Shown here: positions 5,204 to 59,173 of the stretch, one piece after another
Layout of the letters: every line of letters starts with the position of its first letter
Numbering within the stretch: position 1 is the stretch's first letter
DNA from: Octopus vulgaris
Lineage: Eukaryota
Reading direction: 5' to 3'
Length of the DNA: 64,000 nt
Assembly (NCBI GenBank): GCA_951406725.2
Contig: OX597818.1
Coordinates: forward strand, 126,604,001 to 126,668,000
Made by a program: the position numbers and the translations under genes
The notes under the pieces: generated by a model
What the model saw: the letters and a program-made list of their open reading frames with translations, nothing else
Told to the model about the DNA's origin: nothing
The model's database searches: none

Positions 5204-5613
5204 TGAGCTGGCAGAAGCGTTAGCACGCCGGGCGAAATGCTTAGCGGTATTTCGTCTGCCGTTACGTTATGAGTTCAAATTCCGCCGAGGTCGACTTTGC
5301 CTTTCATCCTTTCGGGGTCGATAAATTAAGTACCAGTTACGCACTGGGGTCGATGTAATCGACGTAATTCGTTTGTCTGTCCTTGTTTGTCCCCTCTATG
5401 TTTAGCCCCTTGTGCGTAGTAAAGAAATAGGTATTTCGTCTGCCGTGACGCTCTGAGTTCAAATTCCGCCGCGGTCGACTTTGCCTTTCATCCTTTCGGG
5501 GTCGATTAAATAAGTACCAGTTACGCACTGGAGTCGTTGTAATTGACTTAATCCCTTTGTCTGTCCTTGTTTGTCCCATCTATGTTTAGCACCTTGTGGG
5601 CAATAAAGAAATA
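5204..5613 (+). mobile_element. tRNA-derived SINE family A, dimer, Tx1-like tail
   Basis: GAGCTGGCAGAA head, GAGTTCAAATTCC B box, MetaSINE-like core GCCTTTCATCCTTTCGGGGTCGATAAATTAAGTACCAG. The second unit restarts at GTATTTCGTCTG. Confidence 0.9.
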
Positions 5614-21509: not shown

Positions 21510-22636
21510 TGCGAGAAAAGATTGCGACAGCTCGTTTAAGCATAAGACAAAACAGTTCTTGGTATTTCTTCTGGATCTTTAAGTTCTGAGTTCAAATCCC
21601 ATCAAATGAATTTTTCTTTTCAGTTTCGTGGTCGATAAAATAAAGTGTCAGTCAAATACTAGGCCAATGGTATCGACTGGCTCCTCTCCTTAAATTGCTA
21701 GTTTGTGGCAGTTATTGTTGTTGTTAAGAAGGTGAGCTGGCAGAACCGTTAGCACGCAGGACAAAATGATTAGTGGTGTTGCGCCTGTCTTTATGTTCTG
21801 AGTTCTAATTCCGCCGAGGGAGATTTTGCCTTCCATCCTTTCGAGGTCGATAAAACAAGAACTAGGGTCGATGTAATCGACTACCCACTCCCCTCAAAAT
21901 TTCAAACCTCGTGCCTATAGTAGAAAGAGATTATTGGCGAGCTGGCAGAAACGTTAGCACTCCGGGTAAAATGCTTAGCAGTATTTCATCTGTCTTAGAA
22001 TTTATATTAAAATAAAATATATTTTCCTATGGTCAATGGGGAAAGAGAAAGTATGAGTTCCTGTGTCATAGAATTTATATTAAAATAAAAATCTGTCTTT
22101 ACGTCTGAGTTCAAATTCCGCTGAGGTCGACTTTGCCTTTCATCTTTTCAGGATCGATAAATTAAGTACTAGTGCGTACTGGGGTCGATCTGATTGACTG
22201 GCCCCCATTCCCTCCAAATTTCGGGCCTTGTGCCGAGAGTAATAAAGAAAAGATTATTATTTTTGTTAAGGCGGCGAGCTGACATGCCCCTGGACAAAAT
22301 ACTTAGTGACATTTCGTCTCTGTCTTTGTGTTCTGCGCTCACATTCCGCCGAGGTCGACTTTGCCGTTCGTCCTTCAAGGTTGATGAATTAAGTAGCCGT
22401 GAAGTACTGAGGCCGATATAATATGCTAACCCCTCCGCCTCAAAATTTTTGGCCCTGTGCCAAAACTGGAAGCCATAATATTGTTGTTAAAGCGGCGAGC
22501 TGACAGAATCGTTAGCACACCGATTGAAATGCTTCGCAGTCTCTCTTTCGGGTCTGAGTTCAAATTTTGCAGATGTCGACTTAGTTTTTCATCGTTTCAT
22601 GATGGATAAGATAAGTACCAGTTTAGCAGTGGGGTC
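21510..22636 (+). mobile_element. Tandem cluster of about five SINE family A copies
   Basis: GG(C/T)GAGCTG heads at ~21731, 21936, 22273 and 22494, plus a degenerate copy from ~21510; separated by TAT/TGT runs. Confidence 0.85.
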
Positions 22637-22651
22637 TTCATCCTCTTAAAC

Positions 22652-23932
22652 TTGCTCGCCTTGTGGCAGAGAGAAAGACGGGCAACTGAATCAGATGAAA
22701 CAAGGGCAAAGCAACTGAAACACATGTCTGAATATGCACGGAGATGTAGATATGATTCTGTTTCCGCTATACAGGACCGATTGGTTATGGTATCTCTAGA
22801 GGAGAATATTCTACTTCAAAATAATCGTTTCGGATCACAAATTGTTGATGCAACACTAAAGAGATCTTGTCTTTACGATCATGTAGAAGTAGTGAAGTGG
22901 ACAGCCAATCTAAGACTTCTTACGAAAGGTGATTCTGATGAAAGAGAGTTTGCTGAGTACCTTCTTGATGTAGGAAATGGTAACATTTCTGTTGAACAAA
23001 GCCTAGGTGAATTCAAAATCAAACTACCCAGTGATCTTTGCCTTGAAAGTGGTACTCTTTCAGATCTTTGTGATTTTGCATATGCTGACTTGAAAAATAA
23101 CTTCACAAACCCTGTGTGGTTTGCAAGTAGAACCATTGTTACTCCAACAAATGAAACAGCACAATTTGTGAATGATTTTCTGTTCACCGGGAACCCTGGT
23201 AAGCTAAAGAAAAATATACAGAAGCTCAGATACAGTTGATAATAAAACTCTGTACCCATCAGGGTTTCCACGACATATTCTCAAACTGAAGAAAAAATAA
23301 TGCATAATACTTCTGAGAAATTTAGATGTTTCTAATGGACATTGTAACAGCACACGCTACATCATTGTTAGTTTACATGATCATGTAATTGAGGCTGAGG
23401 TTGCTTCTGGTCCTTATGCAGGATCAACTCTGCTAGTCCCAAGAATATCACATGTGTCTTAAGAAATGAAATTTCCATTCACGTTTATACGCAAACAATT
23501 TCCTGTCAAGTGAGCTTCTACCTCAACGTGCAACAAGGCGCAAGGACAGACTTTGGACCAAATTGGAATATATCTTCCGACACAATTCTTCTCACATGGT
23601 CAGCTGTATGTTGCATTATCTAGAGTTCGAAAGAAGCCTAATGTAAAAAATATTGGCTGAGAGAAAAGGAAACAGTATGATTACCGAAAATTGTGTCTAC
23701 AAAGAGATACCACATTACAGCAAAATATGCTTTTTTTAGCAAGTTTCAGTAAATAGAATTAACACATAAATTGTATGTAAAGTAACATATATTTGTGTGG
23801 AATGAAATTGTTTTGACATATCTCAACACATGCTGAATGAATGATATCGTTATATTAGATCATTTTAAATTTGGGTATGTTTGAAAAAGTAAGGAAACGC
23901 CATTCAGATGTGTCCTCACAGCACCAGACTTG
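22652..23932 (+). mobile_element. Decayed Helitron, PIF1-family helicase C-terminal region
   Basis: QIVDATLKRS..., EFAEYLLDVGNG, LLRNLDVSNGHCNSTR, RKQFPV...[22 protein letters not shown], with stops and frameshifts. Possible 3' hairpin TGTG-tcct-CACA then CTTG|T. Confidence 0.85.
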
Positions 23933-33129: not shown

Positions 33130-33438
33130 ATATATATATATATATATATTACATTCATAGACTTACTGTTTCCCCCTTCCCTCTCTCTTTCTCTCTTCAA
33201 TCGTAGGATAAATTCCTCGAATATTTAGTCTTGTGCAATGAAATCCTAAACAGCGTTATTGTAGTTGATTTTTGTTGTTTTGAATGTTGTTGTTGATCAG
33301 CCCTGTAAGTCCTTGGTAAGATAGATAGATAAATATATATATAGATAACTTATAAATAGATATATAGATAGGTTAAATAGATATATAGATATATAGATAT
33401 ATAGATATATAGATAGCTTGATGGATTACTAGACAGAC

Positions 33439-33520
<82 letters not shown>

Positions 33521-33978
33521 GTTTCTTTATTGGCCACACAGGGCTGCACACAGATGGGACAAGTTACAATGTAGAGCTTTTCTTTTGGGGGATGAAAAAA
33601 AAGGGGGTGGCGTAGGTTTTCGATCAAGAGGGATCGTAAAAGGGAAGAAAAGAACAAAAAAAATTTAAAAAAAGAAGAAAAAATAAAAAGAATAAAAAGA
33701 AAAAAGAAAAAAGAAAAAAAGAAAGGGAAAGGAACAAAAGAAAAGAGAAATGAAAAAAGAAGAAAAAGGGGGAAAAAAAGGAAGAGGAAAAAAAAAGGAA
33801 CGATCAATAGGGATCGTGTATCACAGTGTTATGATATATGGTGTAAAGGGGAAAGCAAGTAAGGTTTTTCCGTGGGAAGAAAAGCCTACGAAAAAGACCA
33901 CGGTAACCTTGGTCAATATTGTTATATGTTACCACATTTGTTTGCAAGTGGGTAACCCTCTGTTTTCAATTTCTGGGT

Positions 33979-36900
33979 TCATAGGATTATGCTCAAGGTG
34001 GCTTCGTCATTCATACGTGCCATCCTTGCTACATTCACCCATCTTTTTTAAAACATTCGCTAGACAAAACTTGCCTCTCTACTCTCACTTTCCTTTTCAA
34101 GTGGTACTTGAAGAAGTTGATGAGAGATTGACTAGAGAGGAAAGTGTTTGTCTCCAATCCTTTCAGACGCGTCCACCAGATACATTCTTTCGCCATAGCC
34201 ACAAGGATGATGAAAATAGCTCTTCCTTCCCGTTTGAAGGAAGGAGGCGTGACAATATTGACGATAGACTCAGCTGATAAACCGACTCGTCCCACACGTG
34301 ACAGCAGTTGTTTGACACAAGCCCACAGGTCGGAAATTGTTGGACACTGCACGAGTGCGTGCAGAACGGTTTCGTCGCTCTGACCGCATCTCGGGCAGGT
34401 CGGCCCCGTGTTTCTCGAGCCGTGTCTGTAGAGCTTATCCCGAACGGGTAGCGCTTCTCGGTAACACTGCCAGGCCAGGGATCTCTGGAAGTTGTCCATG
34501 GGCCCTGGCTCGAAAGTCGTCCTGAACAGGCGGGTCAGGTACTCCTCGTCGACGTCCAGGTTCGCCCCGAGCTCGTCGTCGTACCTCCTCCACTAATCCC
34601 CTATAGAATGCTTTGGTTGTGTTGAAGTCACTCAAGGTCGACTCAGGACGGCAGAGTTGCTTGAGAGCAACGCGACACTCGCGGTGCCAATCGCCCTTCC
34701 TCGGCCTCTTTTTGATCCACGACTGCAGTTCGGTCATGGAGACGAGCTGCGGGAAAGCGTGCCTCACAAACGGCGACCACACCTGTTCACCGTCGTCTAC
34801 ATAGAGCCAGAGATGTCGCAGTCTCAGCGCGTGTCTGCGCATCATCAACCACGGCATGCCCAGCCCTCCTTTTAACGGGTGTTGACAGCAAATGGATCGC
34901 CTGACCATCGGGACGCATCCTTTCCACAAGAAGCGAAAGAGAATGCGTTGTAGTTTGGTGATGGTAGGGTCGGGACAAGGTACGACGGTCAGGCGGTAGT
35001 AGATGACGGACGCGATGTACGTGTTCGCCACCTCCGCCCGACCTTTTAGGGACAGTTTCCTCTCGGCCCATTGCCGGGCGAGAGTGACCACCCTACTCGT
35101 TATCTCGTTCCAGTTCTTCTCCACTTGGAGGTCCGGACCAAACCAGACCCCGAGCAACTCAACCGCGCCGTCGGTCCAGCGTCCCACGACGGAGGCGCTG
35201 GTGGACGGCATGGGCTTGCTTCTCCAGGTGCCTAGTCGCAAGCCCACTGACTTTTCCCGGTTGATTTTCGCTCCTGTCACCGCTTCGTAGTTTTTCAGTG
35301 TCTCGCCGACCTGCTCGATGTGCTCGTGGCTAGACACTATGACGGTGACGTCGTCCGCGTATGCAGACACGCTCGTCCCGCATCCCAGTTCTCGCGGGAT
35401 GCCCCTCAAAGTTGCCAGCTTCCGCAATAATGGCTCGAGAGTCAATACGTATAGAAGCGACGAGAGGGGGCATCCCTGACGGACCGAACGTGCGATGTCG
35501 AAGGGTCTCGACAGATGACCATTCACGCGAATTACCGAACGGATGCCTCTGTACAAAGCGGCTATCCAGCCGCGAAAGACGGGACCGAAGCCTGCCGCTC
35601 TGAGGACCGCCTCCAAGTATCGATGGTCCACCCTATCGAAAGCTTTCGATTGATCCAAATTGATCAGCGCCCCACCCATGCCAGGTTCGTTAACTACCCT
35701 GTCTATGATGTAGCGCATCAGGTGGAGGTTGTCATGGATGGTCCGGCCTGGCACGGCGCATGTTTGCGCCTTGTCGACCAGTTTCTCGATGACAAGCGCC
35801 AACCTCTTGGCTAGCACCTTGGCCAAAATTTTCAAGTCTGCATTAAGTAGAGTGATGGGCCTAAAGTTATCTATTACATTTCCCTTGTTTAGATCTTTCT
35901 TCAGCAGTGTTACGGCTCCTCGGCTCACAAAACCAGGAATGCTCCCGTTTTGCTGCCAGTTGCAGTACACCGCCGCCAAGAAATCTCCAAACAAGTCTGG
36001 CATACAATTGTAAAGCTCGTAGGGTAGACCATCCAAACCCGGTGATTTGTCCCTCGAGCATTCTGCCATCGTGTCCTGCACTTCAGCCGCCGTGTTGGCA
36101 CCTTCGCAGCTCCCTGCCTTTCTTGTCGAGAGTCGTGGTAGGCTATGTAGGTAGGCACTGAAGTCCACCCTACGTTCTTGCCCTCCACTCGTCCCGAACA
36201 GTCGGGCAAAATGCTGCTGAAAGGCCTCACACATTTTACTTGGCTCGAGCAATTCGCGCCCCTGTTCATCTACCAGGGACCGAATGGTGGCTTTGTTGCC
36301 CTGTTGCGCCTCTGCCACCCGGGCCTCTCTCGCGGCTCCAACACCTTCGTTCCTTAGAGCATGCATCCTAGCTCTGACAGCACATCCTTCGTGTTTGGCG
36401 TTGAAGTGTTGGTCGAGGGCCAACCTCGCCGCCAAAACGTCGGATGCGATGCCGCTTCTAATTGCCTCTTCTAGCTTCTTAACTAGCTCACCCTCTACTC
36501 TATTTCTATCTATGGCTAGTGCTTTGCTGTACCTAATCGCTTCTGCTTTTACTGCTCTCTTGAGGGCAAACCACCATTTGTTGTTGATGATGGCTCCCGT
36601 CAAAGCCCTCTTTACTAGTGTGCTAATCCGGTCTCTGAAAACCTGTCTCGATGGGAAAGACGCGTTTAGTTTCCAGTATCTGGGACCCTGCCTAAGTGTC
36701 TTACCTAAGTCTAGCGTACATGTCACAAGTTTGTGATCCGTGTAGCTGACTATGTGGAATTGTGGACAACCTATGCTATCTCTGTCTACTGTCCTACACA
36801 GTATCCTATCTAGATACGATCTCGACGACCCGATGCGGTTGCTCCATGTCCACGTTGGTGCATTCGGGTGGTCTAGTCGGAACCTGTCAGACAGTTGAAA

Positions 36901-37413
36901 GCGTCTGAGCAGGTCTCTGAGGCATTTGCATCCCCGTCTATTCCTATCTCTACCCACGTAGTCTACATGCGTGTCCAAGGTAGCATTCCAATCCCCCACT
37001 AAGAGTTAAGGACGAGACGTTCCCAAGAATACTTCTAGACGTTGAAAGAAATCCGCCCGACCTGTTAAGGGCGGTGCGTAGACTGATACGAGTCGAAAAG
37101 CGCACCCATTGCTGCCGTCGACATCCAGGACGACCAGTCTACCCTCCGGGTCTACGAATATTGTCCTTACTTTGAGATCCAGACTCTTGCGAAAAAGTAC
37201 CGCGGTGCCACTACCGCCCATTCTCGGGAGACAGGGGGAAAAATAAATGTTGAACTGTCCGCCAAACATAGTCTTTAGGGCCCGCGGATTGTAGAGTCTG
37301 GTCTCACTTATGGCTATGATTTCTAACTTATGTGACTTTATGTCATTTAAGAGGTACCCTTGTTTCCAAAGGGACCCCAAGCCACGCGCATTTACACAAC
37401 CAATCTTGATCCT
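33979..37413 (-). pseudogene. ORF2 (AP endonuclease + reverse transcriptase + C-terminal Zn finger) of the Tx1-like LINE, broken by three frameshifts
   Basis: APE motifs IGCVNARGL, ISET, VYAP, GDWN, LDRI, TDH. RT motifs FRPITLLNADLKIL, DQSKAFD, VRQGCPLS, AYADD. Zn finger CPRCGQSDETVLHALVQC. Frame changes near 37005, 34530 and 34045; the last frame ends RWVNVARMARMNDEATLSIIL*. Confidence 0.92.
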
Positions 37414-37457
37414 TGTCCTAATGAATTAGAATACAAGTGAAAGGAACAGAGGGTTAC

Positions 37458-38783
37458 TTACTGCTCGAAAGTTTTTGCTTTCTCCTCCTTTGGTTTGTCC
37501 TCGAGGAGATCCCAGTACAGTTTCTTTGTGAGATATTTTTGGCATTTACCAACCGCACTGGGGAAAATGCCTTTGAGTGTGTGGTGCAGACTTTTGGAGA
37601 TGTATAATATTTTGATGTAGTCTGGTGGTGTTGTGTATGGGTGATTGTTTGTTTTTATGTCATCTTCTGTTATGTTTGTTTTTGATTGGATGTATTCCAT
37701 CAAATTTGTGTTTTTGGTGTCTATAGCTGTGAGCATGTTTGCTGTAAATATTTTTGTGGTGTTGGTGTGGCTGTTGTTTGTGTTGGGTTTTGAAATGTCT
37801 TCGGGAGATGTATTTCCCTCTGCTTTGTTCGTGTTTGCATTTGGTTTGGTTGTGTTTCTGCTCTTTATTTTCCTTCTTTTTGTAGCTATTTGCCATTCTT
37901 CACTGGTTTCGTCTTCCGACGAAATTTCTGAGGAATCAGTAGGGGGTAGGGGTATGTTGTAGGCTTCTATGTATGTCTGTGTAAGTGGTTGTGTTGTTGT
38001 TTTCGTTGTTGTTGGTTGTTGAGTGTTTGTGTGTGTTGAGTGCGGTGTAAGGGATGGGGGATCAGTTTGTGTGTGTTTTCTTTGTTTTTCTGTTCCTATG
38101 GTTCTTGCTGTTGTTGGTGGTGTTGGTATTTTTTCAGGTGTTGAGTGGTTTTTGGTTGATGACGGATTAGCTTGGTGTGCTTCTCTTGTCGTCTTCTGTG
38201 TTGATGGTGGTGTGGGTAGTAGAGCTTTTTTTCCGGAGTGCTTTGGTTGTGGTAGTGGTTGTTGTTGTTGCTCTTGGTGTGCAGTGGTTGGGCACGTCTT
38301 TTTCAGGTGTGTTTCGCTTCCACACAAATAGCAGCGTGGTCGCCTGCCCTCTACCACTACATAGAGTTTGTAGCCTCCTGGCAGTTCTATAGTGGTGGGT
38401 ATCTTCTCTCTTGCTGCTTCATCCAATTGAAGCAGGAATTCGATTGATTTGCCCACATAGTCTTTCTCTCCTAGAACAGCGATTTCAAGGATGTTTGTCT
38501 CTGACATTGTCTCTGTCATTTCAAAGCAGATGGCAGAGACTAACCATTGTGTTTCGACTTCAAGTGGTATATTTTTTATTTGGACTTTCGTGACCCTTTT
38601 GTTTAAATAGACTAGAATCATTACCAAGTCGTCCGAATGCAGCTCCAATGTGGAAAAACGTTTTGCTAAATTTTCGTTGAGGAAACTTACTTGGACTGTA
38701 CCAAATTTGTTTCCCCAACTGATATATTCCTTGAAGTCCCATGCAGGACGAAGGCATTTTTCGATTTTTTTCCTGCGGTGCAT
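37458..38783 (-). CDS. ORF1 (gag-like nucleic-acid-binding protein) of the Tx1-like LINE, 441 aa
   Basis: Uninterrupted ATG-started ORF. CX2CX4HX4C knuckle CYLCGSETHLKKTC preceded by VVVEGRRPRC. T/P/Q-rich linker and EEWQIATKRRK motif, typical of L1/Tx1 ORF1. Confidence 0.88.
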   Translation of the reverse strand: MHRRKKIEKCLRPAWDFKEYISWGNKFGTVQVSFLNENLAKRFSTLELHSDDLVMILVYLNKRVTKVQIKNIPLEVETQWLVSAICFEMTETMSETNILEIAVLGEKDYVGKSIEFLLQLDEAAREKIPTTIELPGGYKLYVVVEGRRPRCYLCGSETHLKKTCPTTAHQEQQQQPLPQPKHSGKKALLPTPPSTQKTTREAHQANPSSTKNHSTPEKIPTPPTTARTIGTEKQRKHTQTDPPSLTPHSTHTNTQQPTTTKTTTQPLTQTYIEAYNIPLPPTDSSEISSEDETSEEWQIATKRRKIKSRNTTKPNANTNKAEGNTSPEDISKPNTNNSHTNTTKIFTANMLTAIDTKNTNLMEYIQSKTNITEDDIKTNNHPYTTPPDYIKILYISKSLHHTLKGIFPSAVGKCQKYLTKKLYWDLLEDKPKEEKAKTFEQ

Positions 38784-39222
38784 TTTCTGTTCGTCTTGTT
38801 TTCTTGTTTATTACTTTATAAATTATTGTTTTTTAGATAGATAGATAGATAGATAGATAGATATATAGTAGTAGTAGTAGTAGTATGTGGACATGTGCTG
38901 TAACAGTTCGGGACTGCTTCCTCCATTTGTTGGTGATTCTCCTCTCCTAGCGGATGACACCTTTGCACCGCTCAGGCGACAACCCTCCAATTGCTTGGGT
39001 AGTCTTTGCTGGTGAGGGTTTTACGACGTTGGAGCGCAAATACTACCACGTCCTCTCTTAGTCACCTTTTACGATGCGCACAAGAAACATTGGGTTAATA
39101 TATACAGGTGTGCGTGTGTGTGAGTGTGTGTGTGCGTGTGTATGTGTGTATGTGCGTGTGTGCGCGCGCGTGTGTGTGTGTGTGCGTGTGTATGTGTGTG
39201 TGTGTGCGTGTGTATGTGTGCG

Positions 39223-39283
<61 letters not shown>

Positions 39284-41926
39284 GTGTGTGTGTGTGTGTA
39301 TGCGTGCGTGTGTGTATTATATGCATGCTTTCTGCTTGCTTCAGTAGATAAAAACAAGCAATATATTTAAAATGAGCGCAGGCGTGACTGTGTGGTAAGA
39401 AGCTCGCTTCCCAATGACACGGTTCCGGGTTCAGTCCCACTGCGTGGCAACTTGGGCAAGTGATTTCTACAAGGTATCCCAAAAGACACTGACGGGTTTC
39501 AATTCTTAATAACTTCCTTAACATTACAAATGAATGCAGGAAATTTTGATACAATATAAAGGACATAAAGGAAATTAATATACACAGGTCAAATTTTGTA
39601 ACACCTTAAAAGTCAGTCATTTTCAGCTTCGCACGCCCGTGCTCTTTCTAAAATTTGCACCATAACACCCTTAAGAGTTTCTGACCTCACTTTTCTGATT
39701 TCTCTATTGTTGTTCTCCTTGAGTCAGACCAGAGTCTACGGTTTGTTGACGTAAACACTATTTTGATTTAGAAACAAAACAATGTTGAGTTTACTAAAAG
39801 ATTCTTCTGCTGATGTTCCCGTAGCTGGAATTTTCGGCAATATCTTTTAGCTAACATAAATATTTGGAAATATTTCACTAAGTTTGTAGTCAGTTAATAA
39901 ATTTGGCAATTCTAAAACTTTTAGCTCCAGTTTTCCAAAATATTCCGTATCTACTGATGATAAATGTTGCTTTTCTATCATAAAACCCTCCTAATTAAGA
40001 TCACTAGGATATTACATGCTCTTTCGCTTTATATTCTGGTTTACTTTCACTCATAGAATGATATTTCTACAAGAAATTTCAAAAAGTCAGCTACAATATA
40101 GTATAATCGATCAAATTATAAAACAGATTTTCTTAAGCAGGCCTCATCTGGCCGTGAATCATCTATGCTCGTCATTACCCACCAGGCCGGCATCCAGTAT
40201 TCTATCGCAATTCAGTCTTTCTAATTATCCAGCGCCCATGACAGAGTTCAAATTCAATCTCAAGATTATTATCCTTCTGTATACGCTACTTGAACTTATT
40301 TTTTCCAATCTTTGTTATATACTGTCTAGCATCATTAATCGTCCACTTTCTAATGCTAATATATTGTTAATAAGATTAGGTAAAAGCTTACATGGGTACG
40401 ATCCGATTATGGAGCTATATGAACCTGAATGAAAGGAACGCCGTTATTGCTATAGCTATAATAAATTTGTAGCCCAAAGCACAGAATTCACTAGGCTTTG
40501 GGTGTCTTTAAAAAATTCAAGTAAATATAATAAATCATACAAAGTCATTTTCATCTTTATCATAACTCGAATAGACTGAATATTAAAGATAGCTGTATAC
40601 CAATCAACTCCATGTCAAAGAATAAGAAAATACGAAACATTTCAGTGAATTTTGCGCTTTCATTAGATATTTTTTTCTCACAATTTATAGAAATGCTGCT
40701 ACAGTATCAGTAAAGTGACGTTCCTTCGCTAATTTTGCATCCTAGACCAAGATTGTTAACGTCCAGTCTGATTCTTCGGTCACAATCGGAAATCTGAGTT
40801 CGTAAACATTACTCTTTCTTTAAAAGGGTGTTTTTTTGTGTGTGTTTTTAAGGATATATCATTTAGATATATCCTTTAATGGTAAACTATTACAGAAATC
40901 GAATGTATCAATCACATTTCTTTTCAGTTAATCATATTCTTAAAAAGTTTTACCAATATGATGTTAATTACACTTTAATTGAGAAGTTCATACATTATAC
41001 TTGAGAGAAAAGCTAATAGCTAAATAAGATTAATGAACCTAAGTAATAATGAATACACATAAACTGTGGTTTTCTGAAAGATGGTTTGTATAGACTTCTT
41101 TTGGTTTTGGAAATACCAATCTGAATTCATATGAAACTTGAATATAATTTAGATGATTTCGCATGTCCAGTTGATAACATTTTTAAACAGAGACATCTGT
41201 CTAAAAAGCGACACAATGTGCGAAACTAGGCATATGCGACAATCCTGTGAATAGTTATCATTTATTTCTTCACAGGATGAACTTATCTGTCCACTTCGTA
41301 AAAGAAACGGCAGGTTCCGGTAGAAGCCTTAAAATGCCCGAAGAATTTTATGATTGCTAACTTTTGTGAAATGATATAATGGAAAGGAACTGTGGGTTCT
41401 TTTAGGGAGCAGGTTTGCAGATATCCACAGGTTCATTTTGTTTTATTCTTTGTTTTATTTTTTCTTTCTCTTCAGACTCCAGATCAACGTACCAATGGAA
41501 CAAGCTCTTATAGGCCATGAGTACCACCACATACACACACACACTTTAATACCCGTACACATCCTATCATTCACTAACACATACACAGGTTGTGTTTAAA
41601 AAGTGGACAACATTAAAAGGGAGAACGATAAAGAAAAGGAGTACATTTTAATCTAGCAGGTATTAGCAATTTGCTGACCGTCTACAAAACACATAAATGC
41701 AACCGAAAAGAGAGTATTACTGCTGCATGCATACAAACGCTCAAAGCCATCTGACTGATTAGCAAAACTTCACTTTACACTTCGCTACAACCAGTAATCC
41801 AATAGTGTTTTGTTTAACATTGGTTCTTTACCATTGCTATGAAGGTTCTGCATTATGTTAGCTAAAAAAACGGTTTACCACAACCTCTCCATTCCACCCA
41901 GTTCACCACACCGTTCTTCTGTCTGG

Positions 41927-50696: not shown

Positions 50697-51243
50697 ATTT
50701 ATTTCTTTATTGCCCACAGAGGGCTAATCATAGAGGGGACAAACAAGTTCAGACAAAGGGATTGAGTCGATTACACCGATCCCAGAGCGTAACTGGTACT
50801 TATCGACCCCGAAAGGATGAAAGGCAAAGTCTGTTTGAACTCAGAACGTAACGGCAGACGAAATACCTATTTTTTACTACCCACAAGGGGCTAAACACAG
50901 AGAGGACAAACAAGGACAGACAAACGGATTAAGTCGATTATATCGACCCCAGTGCTTAACTGGTACTTATTTAATCGACCCCGAAAGGATGAAAGGCAAA
51001 GTCGACCTCGGCGGAATTTGAACTTAGGACGTAGTGGCAGACGAAATACTACTAAGCATTTGGCCCGGCGTACTAACGATTCTTCCAGCTCACTGCCTTA
51101 TAATTTAGATATATTTTCTACTCTAGGTACAAGGTCCGAAATTTTGGGGGAGGTGGGAGGCAGTCGATTACATCGACCCAGTACGCAACTGGTACTTAAT
51201 TTATCGACCCCGAAAGGGTGAAAGGCAAAGTCGACCTCCGCGG
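50697..51243 (-). mobile_element. SINE family A dimer plus adjacent partial copy
   Basis: TATCGACCCCGAAAGG(A/G)TGAAAGGCAAAGTC occurs three times; internal junction at ~50860. Confidence 0.88.
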
Positions 51244-52971: not shown

Positions 52972-53587
52972 TTCTTTTCTACGTTAGGCACAAGGTCCGA
53001 AATTTGTGGGGAGGGAGCCAGTCGATTACATCGACCCCAGTACGCAACTGGTACTTAATCTATCGACTTCCAGAAGGATGAAAGGTAAAGTCGACCTCGG
53101 CGGAACTTGAACTCAAAACGTAAAGACAGACGAAATATCTATTTCTTTACTACCTACAATGGGCTAAACACAGAGAGGACAAACAAGGACAGACAAACGG
53201 ATTAAGTTGATTACATCGACCCCAGTGCGTAACTGGTACTTATTTAATCGACCCCGAAAGGATGAAAGGCAAAGTCGACCTCGGCGGAATTTGAACTCAG
53301 AACGTAACGGCATGCTAACGTTTCTGCCAGCTCGCCGCCTAAAGTTTTCATTATTAACAGGTTAGTTAAGGAGGTGAGCTGGCAGAATCGTTAGAACGCC
53401 AGGTAAAATGCTTAACAACATCTCGTTTGTCTTTACCTTCTGAGTTCAAATACAACCGAGGTCGACTTTGCCTTTTATTCTTACGGGGTCGATAAAAATG
53501 AGTACCAGTTGAGCACTGAGTCGATGTAGTCGACTAGACCCCTTCTCCAATACTTCTGGGCTACTGCCTATTGAAGAAATGATTATT
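52972..53587. mobile_element. SINE family A minus-strand dimer (52972-53341) head-to-head with a plus copy (53368-53587)
   Basis: Family A core on both strands. The dimer carries one Tx1-like tail internally and the other tail type at its end. Confidence 0.85.
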
Positions 53588-58335: not shown

Positions 58336-58560
58336 TGTTTCTTTACTACCCACAAGGGGCTACACACAGAGGGGACAAATAAGGACAGACAAACGGATTA
58401 CGTCGACTCCAGTGCGTAACTGGTACTTAATTTATCGACCCCGAAAGGATGAAAGGCAAAGTCGACCTCGGCGGAATTTGAACTCAGAACGTAACGGCAG
58501 ACGAAATACAGCTACACATTTCGCCCAGCGTGCTAACGTTTCTGCCAGCTCGCCACCTTA
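58336..58560 (-). mobile_element. SINE family A monomer, Tx1-like tail, head-to-head with the trimer
   Basis: Reverse complement of the family A sequence; separated from 58575 by a short (TA)n. Confidence 0.9.
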
Positions 58561-58574
58561 TATATATATATTAC

Positions 58575-59173
58575 AAGGCGGCGAGCTGGCAGAAACGTTA
58601 GCGAGCCGGGCGTAGTGCGTAGCCGTATTTCGTCTGTCGTTACGTTCCGAGTTCAAATTCCGCCGAGGTCGACTTTGCCTTTCATCCTTTCGGGGTCGAT
58701 AAATTAAGTACCAGTTACGAACTGGGGTCGATGTAATCGACTTAATACCTATGTCTGTCCTTGTTTGTTCGCTCTGTGTTTAGCCCTTGTGGGTAATAAA
58801 GAAATAGGTATTTCATCTGTCGTTACGTTCCGAGTTCAAATTCCGCCGAGGTCGACTTTGCCTTTCATCCTTTCGGGGTCGATAAATTAAGTACCAGTTA
58901 CGAACTGGGGTCGATGTAATCGACTTAATACCTATGTCTGTCCTTGTTTGTTCGCTCTGTGTTTAGCCCCTTGTGGGTAATAAAGAAATAGGTATTTCGT
59001 CTGTCGTTACGTTCCGAGTTCAAATTCCGCCGAGGTCGACTTTGCCTTTCATCCTTTCGGGGTCGATAAATTAAGTACCAGTTTCGCACTGGGGTCGATG
59101 TAATCGATTTAATCCCTTTGTCTGTCCTTGTTTGTCCTCTCTGTGTCTGGCCCCTTGTCGGTAGTAAAGAAAT
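58575..59173 (+). mobile_element. SINE family A trimer (183-184 bp units), Tx1-like tail
   Basis: Units start at 58625, 58808 and 58992; near-identical. Confidence 0.92.

What the first reader, a model, noticed from the sequence alone, without database searches (positions are those of the whole stretch)
33521..33562. The Tx1 LINE and a SINE subfamily share their 3'-terminal ~41 nt: a candidate SINE-Tx1 partnership
Seen (plus strand): LINE end TTTCTTTATTGGCCACACAGGGCTGCACACAGATGGGACAA (33522-33562) vs SINE end TTTCTTTATTGCCCACAGAGGGCTAATCATAGAGGGGACAA (50702-50742) is 34/41 identical without gaps. The copy near 58337 is 35/42. The same tail ends SINE units at ~5570-5612, ~53143 and ~58765-59173. 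Established: SINEs mobilised by stringent LINEs carry the LINE's 3' tail, mostly documented for CR1/L2/RTE. Inference: this young MetaSINE-like subfamily is mobilised by a Tx1-clade RT, a much less commonly reported pairing.
Basis: partly seen in the sequence, partly recalled or inferred. Interest (0 to 1): 0.8.

Follow-up and report, generated by a model that had tools for sequence, protein, structure and literature searches.

The report
Octopus SINE carries Tx1 LINE tails
A short repeat that is common in this likely octopus DNA ends in the same 41 letters as a neighbouring Tx1-type jumping gene, and its older form ends like related Tx1-type genes from another animal, so it likely borrows their copying machinery through a shared tail, a pairing that our literature searches did not find described for this group.

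Summary
A near-complete LINE on the minus strand ends in 41 nt that match the 3' ends of 9 SINE units at 30-34 of 41. Shuffles reach at most 27, and the 30 nt upstream match at only 5-7.

New evidence: intact sister LINEs (about 50% protein identity, animal DNA inside a public bacterial assembly) end in a pyrimidine tract, a small hairpin and AATAAA. That end matches the SINE's other, older tail type: 10 of 13 profile hits fall on those tails, against 0 of 28 for control profiles. The SINE has therefore likely taken two tails from one Tx1-like clade. The window LINE's only 3'-UTR AATAAA lies inside the 41 nt.

Corrections: the SINE body is a UCON3-type domain, not the Meta domain. The true partner of the young subfamily may be a sibling family, since the SINE tail is about 64 nt and only 41 match, at about 80%.

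Open: no second copy of this LINE family could be inspected, so a one-off chimera remains possible (about 15%), and mobilisation is inferred.

Verdict: a new variant of a known kind (tail-sharing SINE/LINE pair with a Tx1-like partner).

The parts
33522..33562 (-). 41-nt 3' terminus of the LINE shared with the young (T-type) SINE tail; holds a weak hairpin (33532-33544) and the only AATAAA of the 3' UTR (33526-33531)
33521..34034 (-). LINE 3' UTR (about 510 nt, with a long pyrimidine tract)
34035..34592 (-). ORF2 C-terminal part with zf-RVT, in a shifted frame
34435..37005 (-). ORF2 main frame with RVT_1 (855 aa open)
37006..37425 (-). ORF2 N-terminal AP-endonuclease part, same frame, separated by one stop
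37458..38783 (-). ORF1, 441 aa, open, one CCHC knuckle; homologous to sister-LINE ORF1 (24-29%, E 1e-8 to 1e-10)
   Evidence: the CCHC motif is seen directly
33436..33520 (-). (TATC)n microsatellite directly after the LINE end
38835..38885 (-). (TAC)n(TATC)n microsatellite about 50 nt before the ORF1 start, same orientation as the 3' one; likely the split target
   Evidence: boundary inferred
5204..5612 (+). SINE locus A: two T-type units in tandem
50700..51102 (-). SINE locus B: two T-type units, one 18-nt flanking duplication (2 mismatches)
52972..53341 (-). SINE locus C: T-type unit followed by an old-type unit, one 15-nt flanking duplication (1 mismatch)
58337..58560 (-). SINE locus D: single T-type unit in (TA)n; B-box-like GAGTTCAAAT, UCON3-type body, tail
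58421..58468 (-). UCON3-type central domain (example copy); 38 of 48 to UCON3_CM by eye
58574..59173 (+). SINE locus E: three T-type units in tandem in (TA)n
52984..53015 (-). old-type SINE tail matching sister-LINE 3' ends (26 of 30 aligned nt plus one gap to L092)
22204..22236 (+). old-type SINE tail, best hit of the sister-LINE end profile (E 0.0017)
22430..22470 (+). old-type SINE tail, L137-like variant (26 of 33 aligned nt plus one gap)
21886..21918 (+). old-type SINE tail hit by the sister-LINE end profile
51122..51162 (-). old-type SINE tail hit by the sister-LINE end profile
5421..5437 (+). recurrent multimer junction (tail end joined to position about 50 of the next unit); also at 50860-50876, 53132-53148, 58798-58814 and 58982-58998
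   Evidence: 5 matches, 0.04 expected

Best explanation
The 41 nt are shared by the 3' ends of this Tx1-like LINE and of a young SINE subfamily; they are likely the LINE family's own end, which the SINE likely took over so that its RNA would be recognised and copied into the genome by the Tx1 reverse transcriptase. Shown: co-terminal identity; a second, older tail on the same SINE body that matches the 3' ends of sister LINEs; a hairpin and AATAAA at those ends. Inferred: (1) the SINE is transcribed by Pol III from a tRNA-like head; (2) ORF2p of this Tx1-like clade binds a small 3' stem-loop (4-5 bp stem, loop CUUGU or a variant) in the stringent manner known from L2 elements and primes reverse transcription at a nick in AT-rich or microsatellite DNA; (3) the SINE changed tails at least once, by template switching, from one Tx1-like lineage (old tail) to the lineage of the window's LINE (T tail); (4) the actual donor of the T tail may be a sibling family of this copy.
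For: Identity 30-34/41 to 9 SINE units against a shuffle maximum of 27 and 5-7/30 upstream. A T-tail profile hits 9 SINE units and the LINE end (E 4e-8); the next hit is E 0.31. The only AATAAA in 33501-34040 lies in the 41 nt, and sister LINEs carry AATAAA 18-21 nt after their hairpin in 43 of 43 distinct end contexts and stop 10-25 nt later. The sister-end profile hits old-type SINE tails in 10 of 11 hits and 10 of 13; 8 control profiles from upstream UTR windows give 0 of 28. An old-tail profile ranks the 3' end first in 8 of 8 sister units and finds nothing at E<=1 in 80 more distant loci. Sister LINEs and the window RT form a 17-row clade, support 100. Hairpin: 81.5% of 108 cells paired against 59% shuffled and 31-55% slid. 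(TATC)n lies on both sides of the LINE plus tail, as expected if they inserted as one unit. The LINE end differs from the tail consensus at 8 of 41, more than any of 8 SINE tails (1-6), although the LINE copy looks young (56-84% of its 31-mers are held by 20 runs in 11 studies).
Against: Only one copy of this LINE family was seen; no second 3' end was read. The sister-end profile does not hit the window LINE's end, and pairwise alignment is weak (best: 8 of 300 shuffles as high for L092, not significant for the other 7), so homology of the 41 nt to sister ends is not shown. Only 41 of the roughly 64 nt of T tail match, at 73-83%. The LINE breaks one of the four stem pairs and alters the loop. 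None of the ten 42-43-nt tails folds better than shuffles (z -1.6 to +1.0; LINE 0.23). The 8 sister subfamilies come from one assembly and amount to two lineages, and single-hit E-values are modest (0.0002-0.97). The covariation is largely one change between two lineages in a register chosen by hand. The 15-18 nt duplications also fit RTE (PMC7245038). No named Tx1 or L1 sequence was in the tree.
Confidence: 0.74

Rival explanations
1. One-off chimera: the 41 nt are a 5'-clipped SINE copy. Reverse transcription began on a SINE RNA and switched to the LINE RNA, or the LINE landed beside a SINE remnant. The LINE family itself ends otherwise.
For: T-type SINE units are frequent (9 of 26 core hits in 64 kb). 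Only 3 of 41 columns are private to the LINE; the other differences occur in some SINE copy. The sister-end profile does not recognise the LINE's end.
Against: No SINE head or body lies at the LINE's 5' flank. Without the 41 nt the LINE would have no AATAAA in its 3' UTR, unlike all sister ends. 3 private changes at 2% divergence have p about 0.05, and 7-8 changes far less. The older tail is independently tied to the same LINE clade. A template switch would itself need the LINE's RT to start on this SINE tail.
Confidence: 0.15
2. The tail came from a Tx1-like LINE long ago, but today's SINE copies are made by another LINE (for example RTE), or by any relaxed enzyme, so the tail is a relic and not a recognition signal.
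For: Old-type copies end in (TAT)n-like runs that sister LINEs lack. Duplications of 15-18 nt fit RTE as well. RTE, CR1 and R4 families are also recently active in O. vulgaris (PMC13282606). Folding of the tails alone is not significant.
Against: T-type copies end exactly where the LINE ends, with no added tail. Both tail types keep the same loop on stems that differ on both sides.
Confidence: 0.08
3. Chance or convergence on a short poly(A)-signal-like end.
For: The segment is short, and AATAAAG is a common end motif.
Against: 33/41 to the consensus against a maximum of 27 in 300 shuffles over both strands; E 4e-8; the match sits exactly at both termini.
Confidence: 0.01

Closest known systems
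Stringent SINE/LINE pairs of the L2, CR1, RTE and Nimb clades (eel UnaSINE/UnaL2, zebrafish ZfL2; bivalve HCD SINEs)
   Same: Short shared 3' end with a stem-loop. In bivalves the shared ends span 35-61 bp at 72-95% identity (PMC11481361, passages), which brackets this case. Tail swapping on a conserved body.
   Different: The partner here is Tx1-like. The bivalve survey lists CR1, CR1-Zenon, L2 and Nimb only and has no mention of Tx1.
L1-clade stringent pairs: maize ZmSINE2/3 with LINE1-1_ZM; Chlamydomonas SINEX-3_CR with L1-1_CR (Ohshima 2012, PMC3472496)
   Same: An L1-group LINE with a conserved last 45-50 nt, a hairpin with compensatory changes, and a tRNA-derived SINE that shares it.
   Different: Those are plants and algae. 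The survey found only 3 L1-tailed SINEs among 58 pairs. This is an animal, Tx1-like lineage, and one SINE body carries two of its tails.
SINEU with Tx1-Mar in crocodilians (Kojima 2015, PMC4494074)
   Same: A SINE thought to be mobilised by Tx1-clade elements.
   Different: There the link rests on shared target preference, age and 5' U1/U2 heads, and SINEU ends in poly(A). Here it rests on a shared 3' sequence, and the head is tRNA-like.
UCON3-domain SINEs (Kojima 2020, PMC7245038)
   Same: Central domain after the tRNA head: 38 of 48 to UCON3_CM by eye; a 20-nt motif occurs 13 times.
   Different: The published list covers Chordata, Nematoda, Cnidaria and Xenacoelomorpha, no mollusc. The hagfish tails aligned in Fig. 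S5 are RTE-like, CR1-like or unassigned.
Keno, Kibi and Koshi (target-specific Tx1 clade)
   Same: APE-RT two-ORF build; the RT groups with U2-inserted (Keno-like) elements; this copy sits in a microsatellite, as Kibi and Koshi do (PMC4494074).
   Different: Not in U2 (Rfam finds nothing in the window); belongs to a separate lineage whose named members are Argonauta and Sepia proteins; target preference untested (one copy).

Membership tests
Tx1 clade LINE | ORF2 with AP endonuclease, RT and C-terminal zinc finger; separate ORF1 | tested here: met
   Pfam Exo_endo_phos, RVT_1 and zf-RVT; ORF1 of 441 aa with CCHC
Tx1 clade LINE | RT phylogeny places it with Tx1 members and apart from L1 | tested here: inconclusive
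   Falls in a 32-row clade (SH-aLRT 96) with U2-inserted Keno-like elements (quick tree, midpoint root); phmmer 324 bits to the U2-inserted L001 ORF2 against 160 to human L1 ORF2p and 74 to R2. No named Tx1 or L1 row was in the tree.
Tx1 clade LINE | Target preference (frequent, not universal) | not testable with these tools
   One copy, in (TATC)n; no genome held
Keno | Inserted in a U2 snRNA gene | tested here: not met
   No Rfam match in the window; Keno-like loci form another branch
MetaSINE | 66-bp Meta domain after the tRNA head | tested here: not met
   The Meta consensus in PMC7245038 Fig. S4 is unlike the SINE body; a 20-nt motif from it has 0 matches at 3 mismatches
UCON3-domain SINE | About 50-bp UCON3 domain between head and tail | tested here: met
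   38 of 48 to UCON3_CM by eye; 13 motif matches, 0.01 expected
tRNA-derived SINE (SINE2) | tRNA-like head with A and B boxes | tested here: inconclusive
   B-box-like GAGTTCAAAT seen directly; ARAGORN finds 0 genes and Rfam no tRNA match
tRNA-derived SINE (SINE2) | Dispersed short non-coding copies with target-site duplications | tested here: met
   26 core hits in 64 kb; clear duplications at 2 of 5 T-type loci, 2 in (TA)n, 1 with none
Stringent SINE/LINE pair | Shared 3'-terminal sequence | tested here: met
   for this LINE copy; for the old tail and sister LINEs
Stringent SINE/LINE pair | The shared end belongs to the LINE family consensus | not tested
   No second copy of the window's family was obtained; met for the sister families
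Stringent SINE/LINE pair | Conserved stem-loop in the tail | tested here: inconclusive
   Pairing and covariation above controls but mostly one event; folding z-scores not significant; the LINE breaks one pair
Stringent SINE/LINE pair | Tail-dependent mobilisation by the LINE ORF2p | not testable with these tools
   needs a retrotransposition or binding assay

The most novel reading that the evidence does not exclude
A cephalopod lineage of Tx1-like LINEs reads a 3' stem-loop stringently and drives a major octopus SINE. The UCON3-type SINE has jumped from one Tx1 lineage's tail to another's, keeping the loop while the stem flipped in step with the partner. The young form also inserts at one fixed site inside older copies of itself, building the tandem multimers, in parallel with the head-to-tail arrays of the sister LINEs.
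Probability: 0.3. Interest if true: 0.78.

Novelty: new variant of a known kind. Interest (0 to 1): 0.6.

Why it matters
SINEs make up 11.6% of the O. vulgaris genome, and 893 of 900 recently active SINE families are unclassified, with 13 recently active L1-Tx1 families beside them (PMC13282606). I found no partner LINE named for them. A Tx1-like partner defined by a shared 3' stem-loop would name a likely engine of the octopus SINE expansion. It would also give an animal test of the proposal that L1-group elements were ancestrally stringent and relaxed later (PMC3472496): two tails, two LINE lineages and a stem with compensatory changes make a ready swap experiment. It extends UCON3-domain SINEs to molluscs relative to the published list. 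The mechanism itself is textbook.

Tried and rejected
Other copies of the LINE: no genome is held. Sequencing runs hold the LINE (no RNA holder listed), but no read-level view of its 3' end was obtained, so that test is open. The metagenome scan gave only distant relatives (24-47%), none with the 41 nt (best 25/41). The viral scan gave nothing. A degenerate tail pattern found 0 matches in bacterial genomes. G001 holds no match to the SINE body, and 120 kb of its animal-type contigs gave no T-tail hit and only one weak body hit (E 0.26). Earlier findings by sequence or place: none.

Rejected: the MetaSINE label; Keno membership; the LINE having inserted into a SINE tail (no SINE body at its 5' side); a U2-like target at the SINE junction (eye resemblance only, not pursued); L042's partial match to the tail (E 0.1, unrelated clade); miRNA hits at 58520-58613 (two SINE heads back to back, all below gathering scores).

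The careful tree did not finish, so quick trees were used. Supplements of PMC4824008 and PMC4758252 gave no text match, and one file of each was not searchable; one file of PMC3472496 was not searchable.

Full report
Setting. The DNA is AT-rich and full of microsatellites, with 26 copies of one SINE core in 64 kb. The closest named relatives of the LINE's RT are Argonauta hians proteins (63% and 53%) and a Sepia pharaonis protein (44%), so the host is likely an octopod. This is an inference; no genome is held.

Observation. Confirmed as written, with one extra unit at 50869. The LINE end matches 9 SINE tails at 30-34 of 41 and the consensus of 8 of them at 33 of 41; 300 shuffles reach at most 27; the 30 nt upstream match at 5-7. 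A profile of 8 T-type tails finds the 9 SINE units and the LINE end (E 4e-8, model positions 27-67 only), then nothing better than E 0.31.

The LINE. Minus strand. ORF1 38783-37458 is open and has a CCHC knuckle. ORF2 carries endonuclease, RT and zf-RVT domains and is interrupted by one stop and one frameshift. It scores 160 bits against human L1 ORF2p and 74 against R2, but 324 against a full ORF2 whose element ends in poly(A) inside a U2 snRNA gene (L001). U2 insertion with an AP endonuclease defines Keno of the Tx1 clade (PMC4494074 and PMC4640811, passages). In a quick 39-row tree the window RT lies in a 32-row clade (96) with those elements and in a 17-row clade (100) with the cephalopod-named proteins and the sister LINEs below. 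No named Tx1 or L1 row was available, so 'Tx1' is likely, not proven. The copy lies between two (TATC)n runs in the same orientation. Only about 50 nt separate the upstream run from the ORF1 start, against 280-460 nt between one unit's AATAAA and the next ORF1 start in 4 sister arrays. The copy is therefore slightly 5'-clipped, or that run lies inside the UTR, in which case the both-flanks argument falls. Twenty runs from 11 studies hold 56-84% of its 31-mers, some of them small data sets. I infer a repeated, young family, roughly 2% from other copies (conversion).

The SINE. It has a head with a B-box-like motif, a central domain and one of two tails after a common GAC. The central domain is not the Meta domain: the Meta consensus printed in PMC7245038 Fig. 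S4 (supplement file 1 read whole) is unrelated, and a motif from it has 0 matches. It matches the UCON3 domain of Fig. S2 (38 of 48 by eye; 13 motif matches). T-type bodies are 1.7-8.4% from their consensus; 6 old-type bodies are 8.5-18.6% from it, a figure that mixes age and subfamily. Whether this SINE is one of the three octopus SINEs of Ohshima and Okada 1994 could not be checked: I saw only the citation.

Independent evidence from sister LINEs. A scan of bacterial genomes returned animal-type contigs inside one assembly (G001) with head-to-tail arrays of intact elements at 49-50% identity (57 of 60 loci). Their 3' UTRs end in a pyrimidine tract, GGC-CTYGT-GCC, a second hairpin and AATAAA. 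AATAAA follows the hairpin by 18-21 nt in 43 of 43 distinct contexts, and array ends and truncated neighbours show that the elements stop 10-25 nt further on. A profile of these ends (8 subfamilies, one copy each) gives 11 hits in the window, 10 on old-type SINE tails in sense. A recut profile gives 10 of 13, on 18 listed sites covering 912 nt, while 8 control profiles from upstream UTR windows give 0 of 28. Conversely, a profile of 11 old-type tails that I selected ranks the 3' end first in 8 of 8 units (E 0.0002-0.97) and finds nothing at E<=1 in 80 more distant loci. The best pair is 26 of 30 aligned nt plus one gap. The older tail is thus tied to the true 3' end of LINEs in the same clade. 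Limits: one assembly, in effect two lineages, and a short, partly low-complexity motif.

Is the 41-nt end native to the window's LINE? For: it holds the only AATAAA in 33501-34040; it is more distant from the SINE consensus (8 changes) than any SINE tail (1-6) despite the young copy; no SINE body lies at the 5' flank; the clade demonstrably donates tails. Against: the sister-end profile does not hit it; pairwise alignment is marginal for 1 of 8 and null for 7; only 3 columns are private to the LINE; sister UTRs have a second, upstream AATAAA that this LINE lacks. No second copy was read. I put native at about 80-85%.

Structure. Both tail types and the sister ends align without gaps around a 5-nt loop (27 rows; left out were two near-identical sister rows, the gapped T unit and the old-type tails with no recognisable loop). 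The stem is mostly AGGC/GCCU in sister LINEs and old tails, and GCCC/GGGY in T tails: 81.5% of cells paired against 59% shuffled and 31-55% slid. This is mostly one two-lineage event in a hand-chosen register. The 42-nt tails do not fold better than shuffles, and the LINE breaks one pair. With the 23 unmatched nt of the T tail, this suggests that the donor is a sibling family.

Mechanism. By analogy with ZfL2 and UnaL2, where ORF2p binds the tail stem-loop (PMC4176376, passages), the Tx1-like ORF2p likely recognises this end on SINE RNA and primes reverse transcription at a nick. Flanking duplications of 18 and 15 nt at loci B and C fit an L1-type endonuclease but also RTE. Tail exchange by template switching is the published model for such SINEs (PMC4824008, section 9).

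Multimers. Four of 5 T-type loci are tandem multimers with the same junction, the tail end joined to position about 50 of the next unit (5 matches, 0.04 expected). In locus C the downstream unit is old-type from about 13 nt after the junction, and in A and B the last unit keeps the more LINE-like AATAAA. Insertion at a fixed site in older copies, or a dimeric master with template switching, would both give this. It is unresolved.

Novelty. Ten searches of the open library returned no tail-sharing SINE/Tx1 pair and no partner for octopus SINEs. Seen: PMC3472496 (part 1 of 3, supplement search) and PMC3747384 (passages, section 7), 3 L1-tailed SINEs among 58 pairs; PMC4494074 (passages, section 16), SINEU with Tx1-Mar by target preference; PMC11481361, PMC4758252, PMC5786205, PMC8967140 and PMC5753468 (passages); PMC13282606 (parts 1-2 of 3, supplement search). 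Repbase, Dfam, the Zenodo library, subscription papers and three unsearchable supplement files could hold a prior description.

Verdict. A real feature and a likely stringent SINE/Tx1-like partnership with a tail swap: a new variant of a known kind. Confidence 0.74, interest 0.6.

Noticed in passing
window 5421, 50860, 53132, 58798, 58982: Constant junction in T-type SINE multimers at position about 50 of the next unit; old-type neighbours instead join at the head start (e.g. 21930-21990, 22255-22290).
   Followed up: partly
L081-L137 (G001 contigs C3-C19): A bacterial assembly carries animal-type contigs with homogeneous head-to-tail arrays of intact Tx1-like LINEs (period about 6.4-6.9 kb, at least 8 subfamilies); looks like host contamination and like self-targeted or tandem insertion.
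   Followed up: partly
L001 7073-7110, L005 6390-6430, L014 3663-3700, L028 6953-6990, L138 6961-7000: Keno-like elements end in AATAAA plus a CCYGG-loop-CCRGG hairpin with a compensatory change, then poly(A); L001, L005 and L138 have an Rfam U2 match right after it. This suggests stringent 3' ends elsewhere in the Tx1 clade.
   Followed up: partly
L141 17480-18090: Two tandem GC-rich units of about 286 nt that end in the same hairpin motif plus a second hairpin, outside the LINE arrays; possibly clipped 3' ends of another family or a non-autonomous element.
   Followed up: no
window 58337-59173: SINE loci D and E lie head to head across a (TA)n run, forming a long inverted repeat.
   Followed up: no
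window 37458-38783 against 34035-37425: ORF1 is A-rich while ORF2 reaches 54% G+C in a 37% G+C window.
   Followed up: no
window 22610-23239: Fragment with a PIF1-like helicase hit (E 2e-6), likely a Helitron remnant, directly after a SINE copy.
   Followed up: no
window 38880-39070 and 39370-39440: Unassigned GC-richer stretch upstream of the LINE's 5' microsatellite, and a piece of another short repeat; the first could be part of the 5' UTR.
   Followed up: partly
L005, L019, L138: U2 genes next to 5S rRNA genes (and U1 in L138) around Keno-like elements.
   Followed up: no
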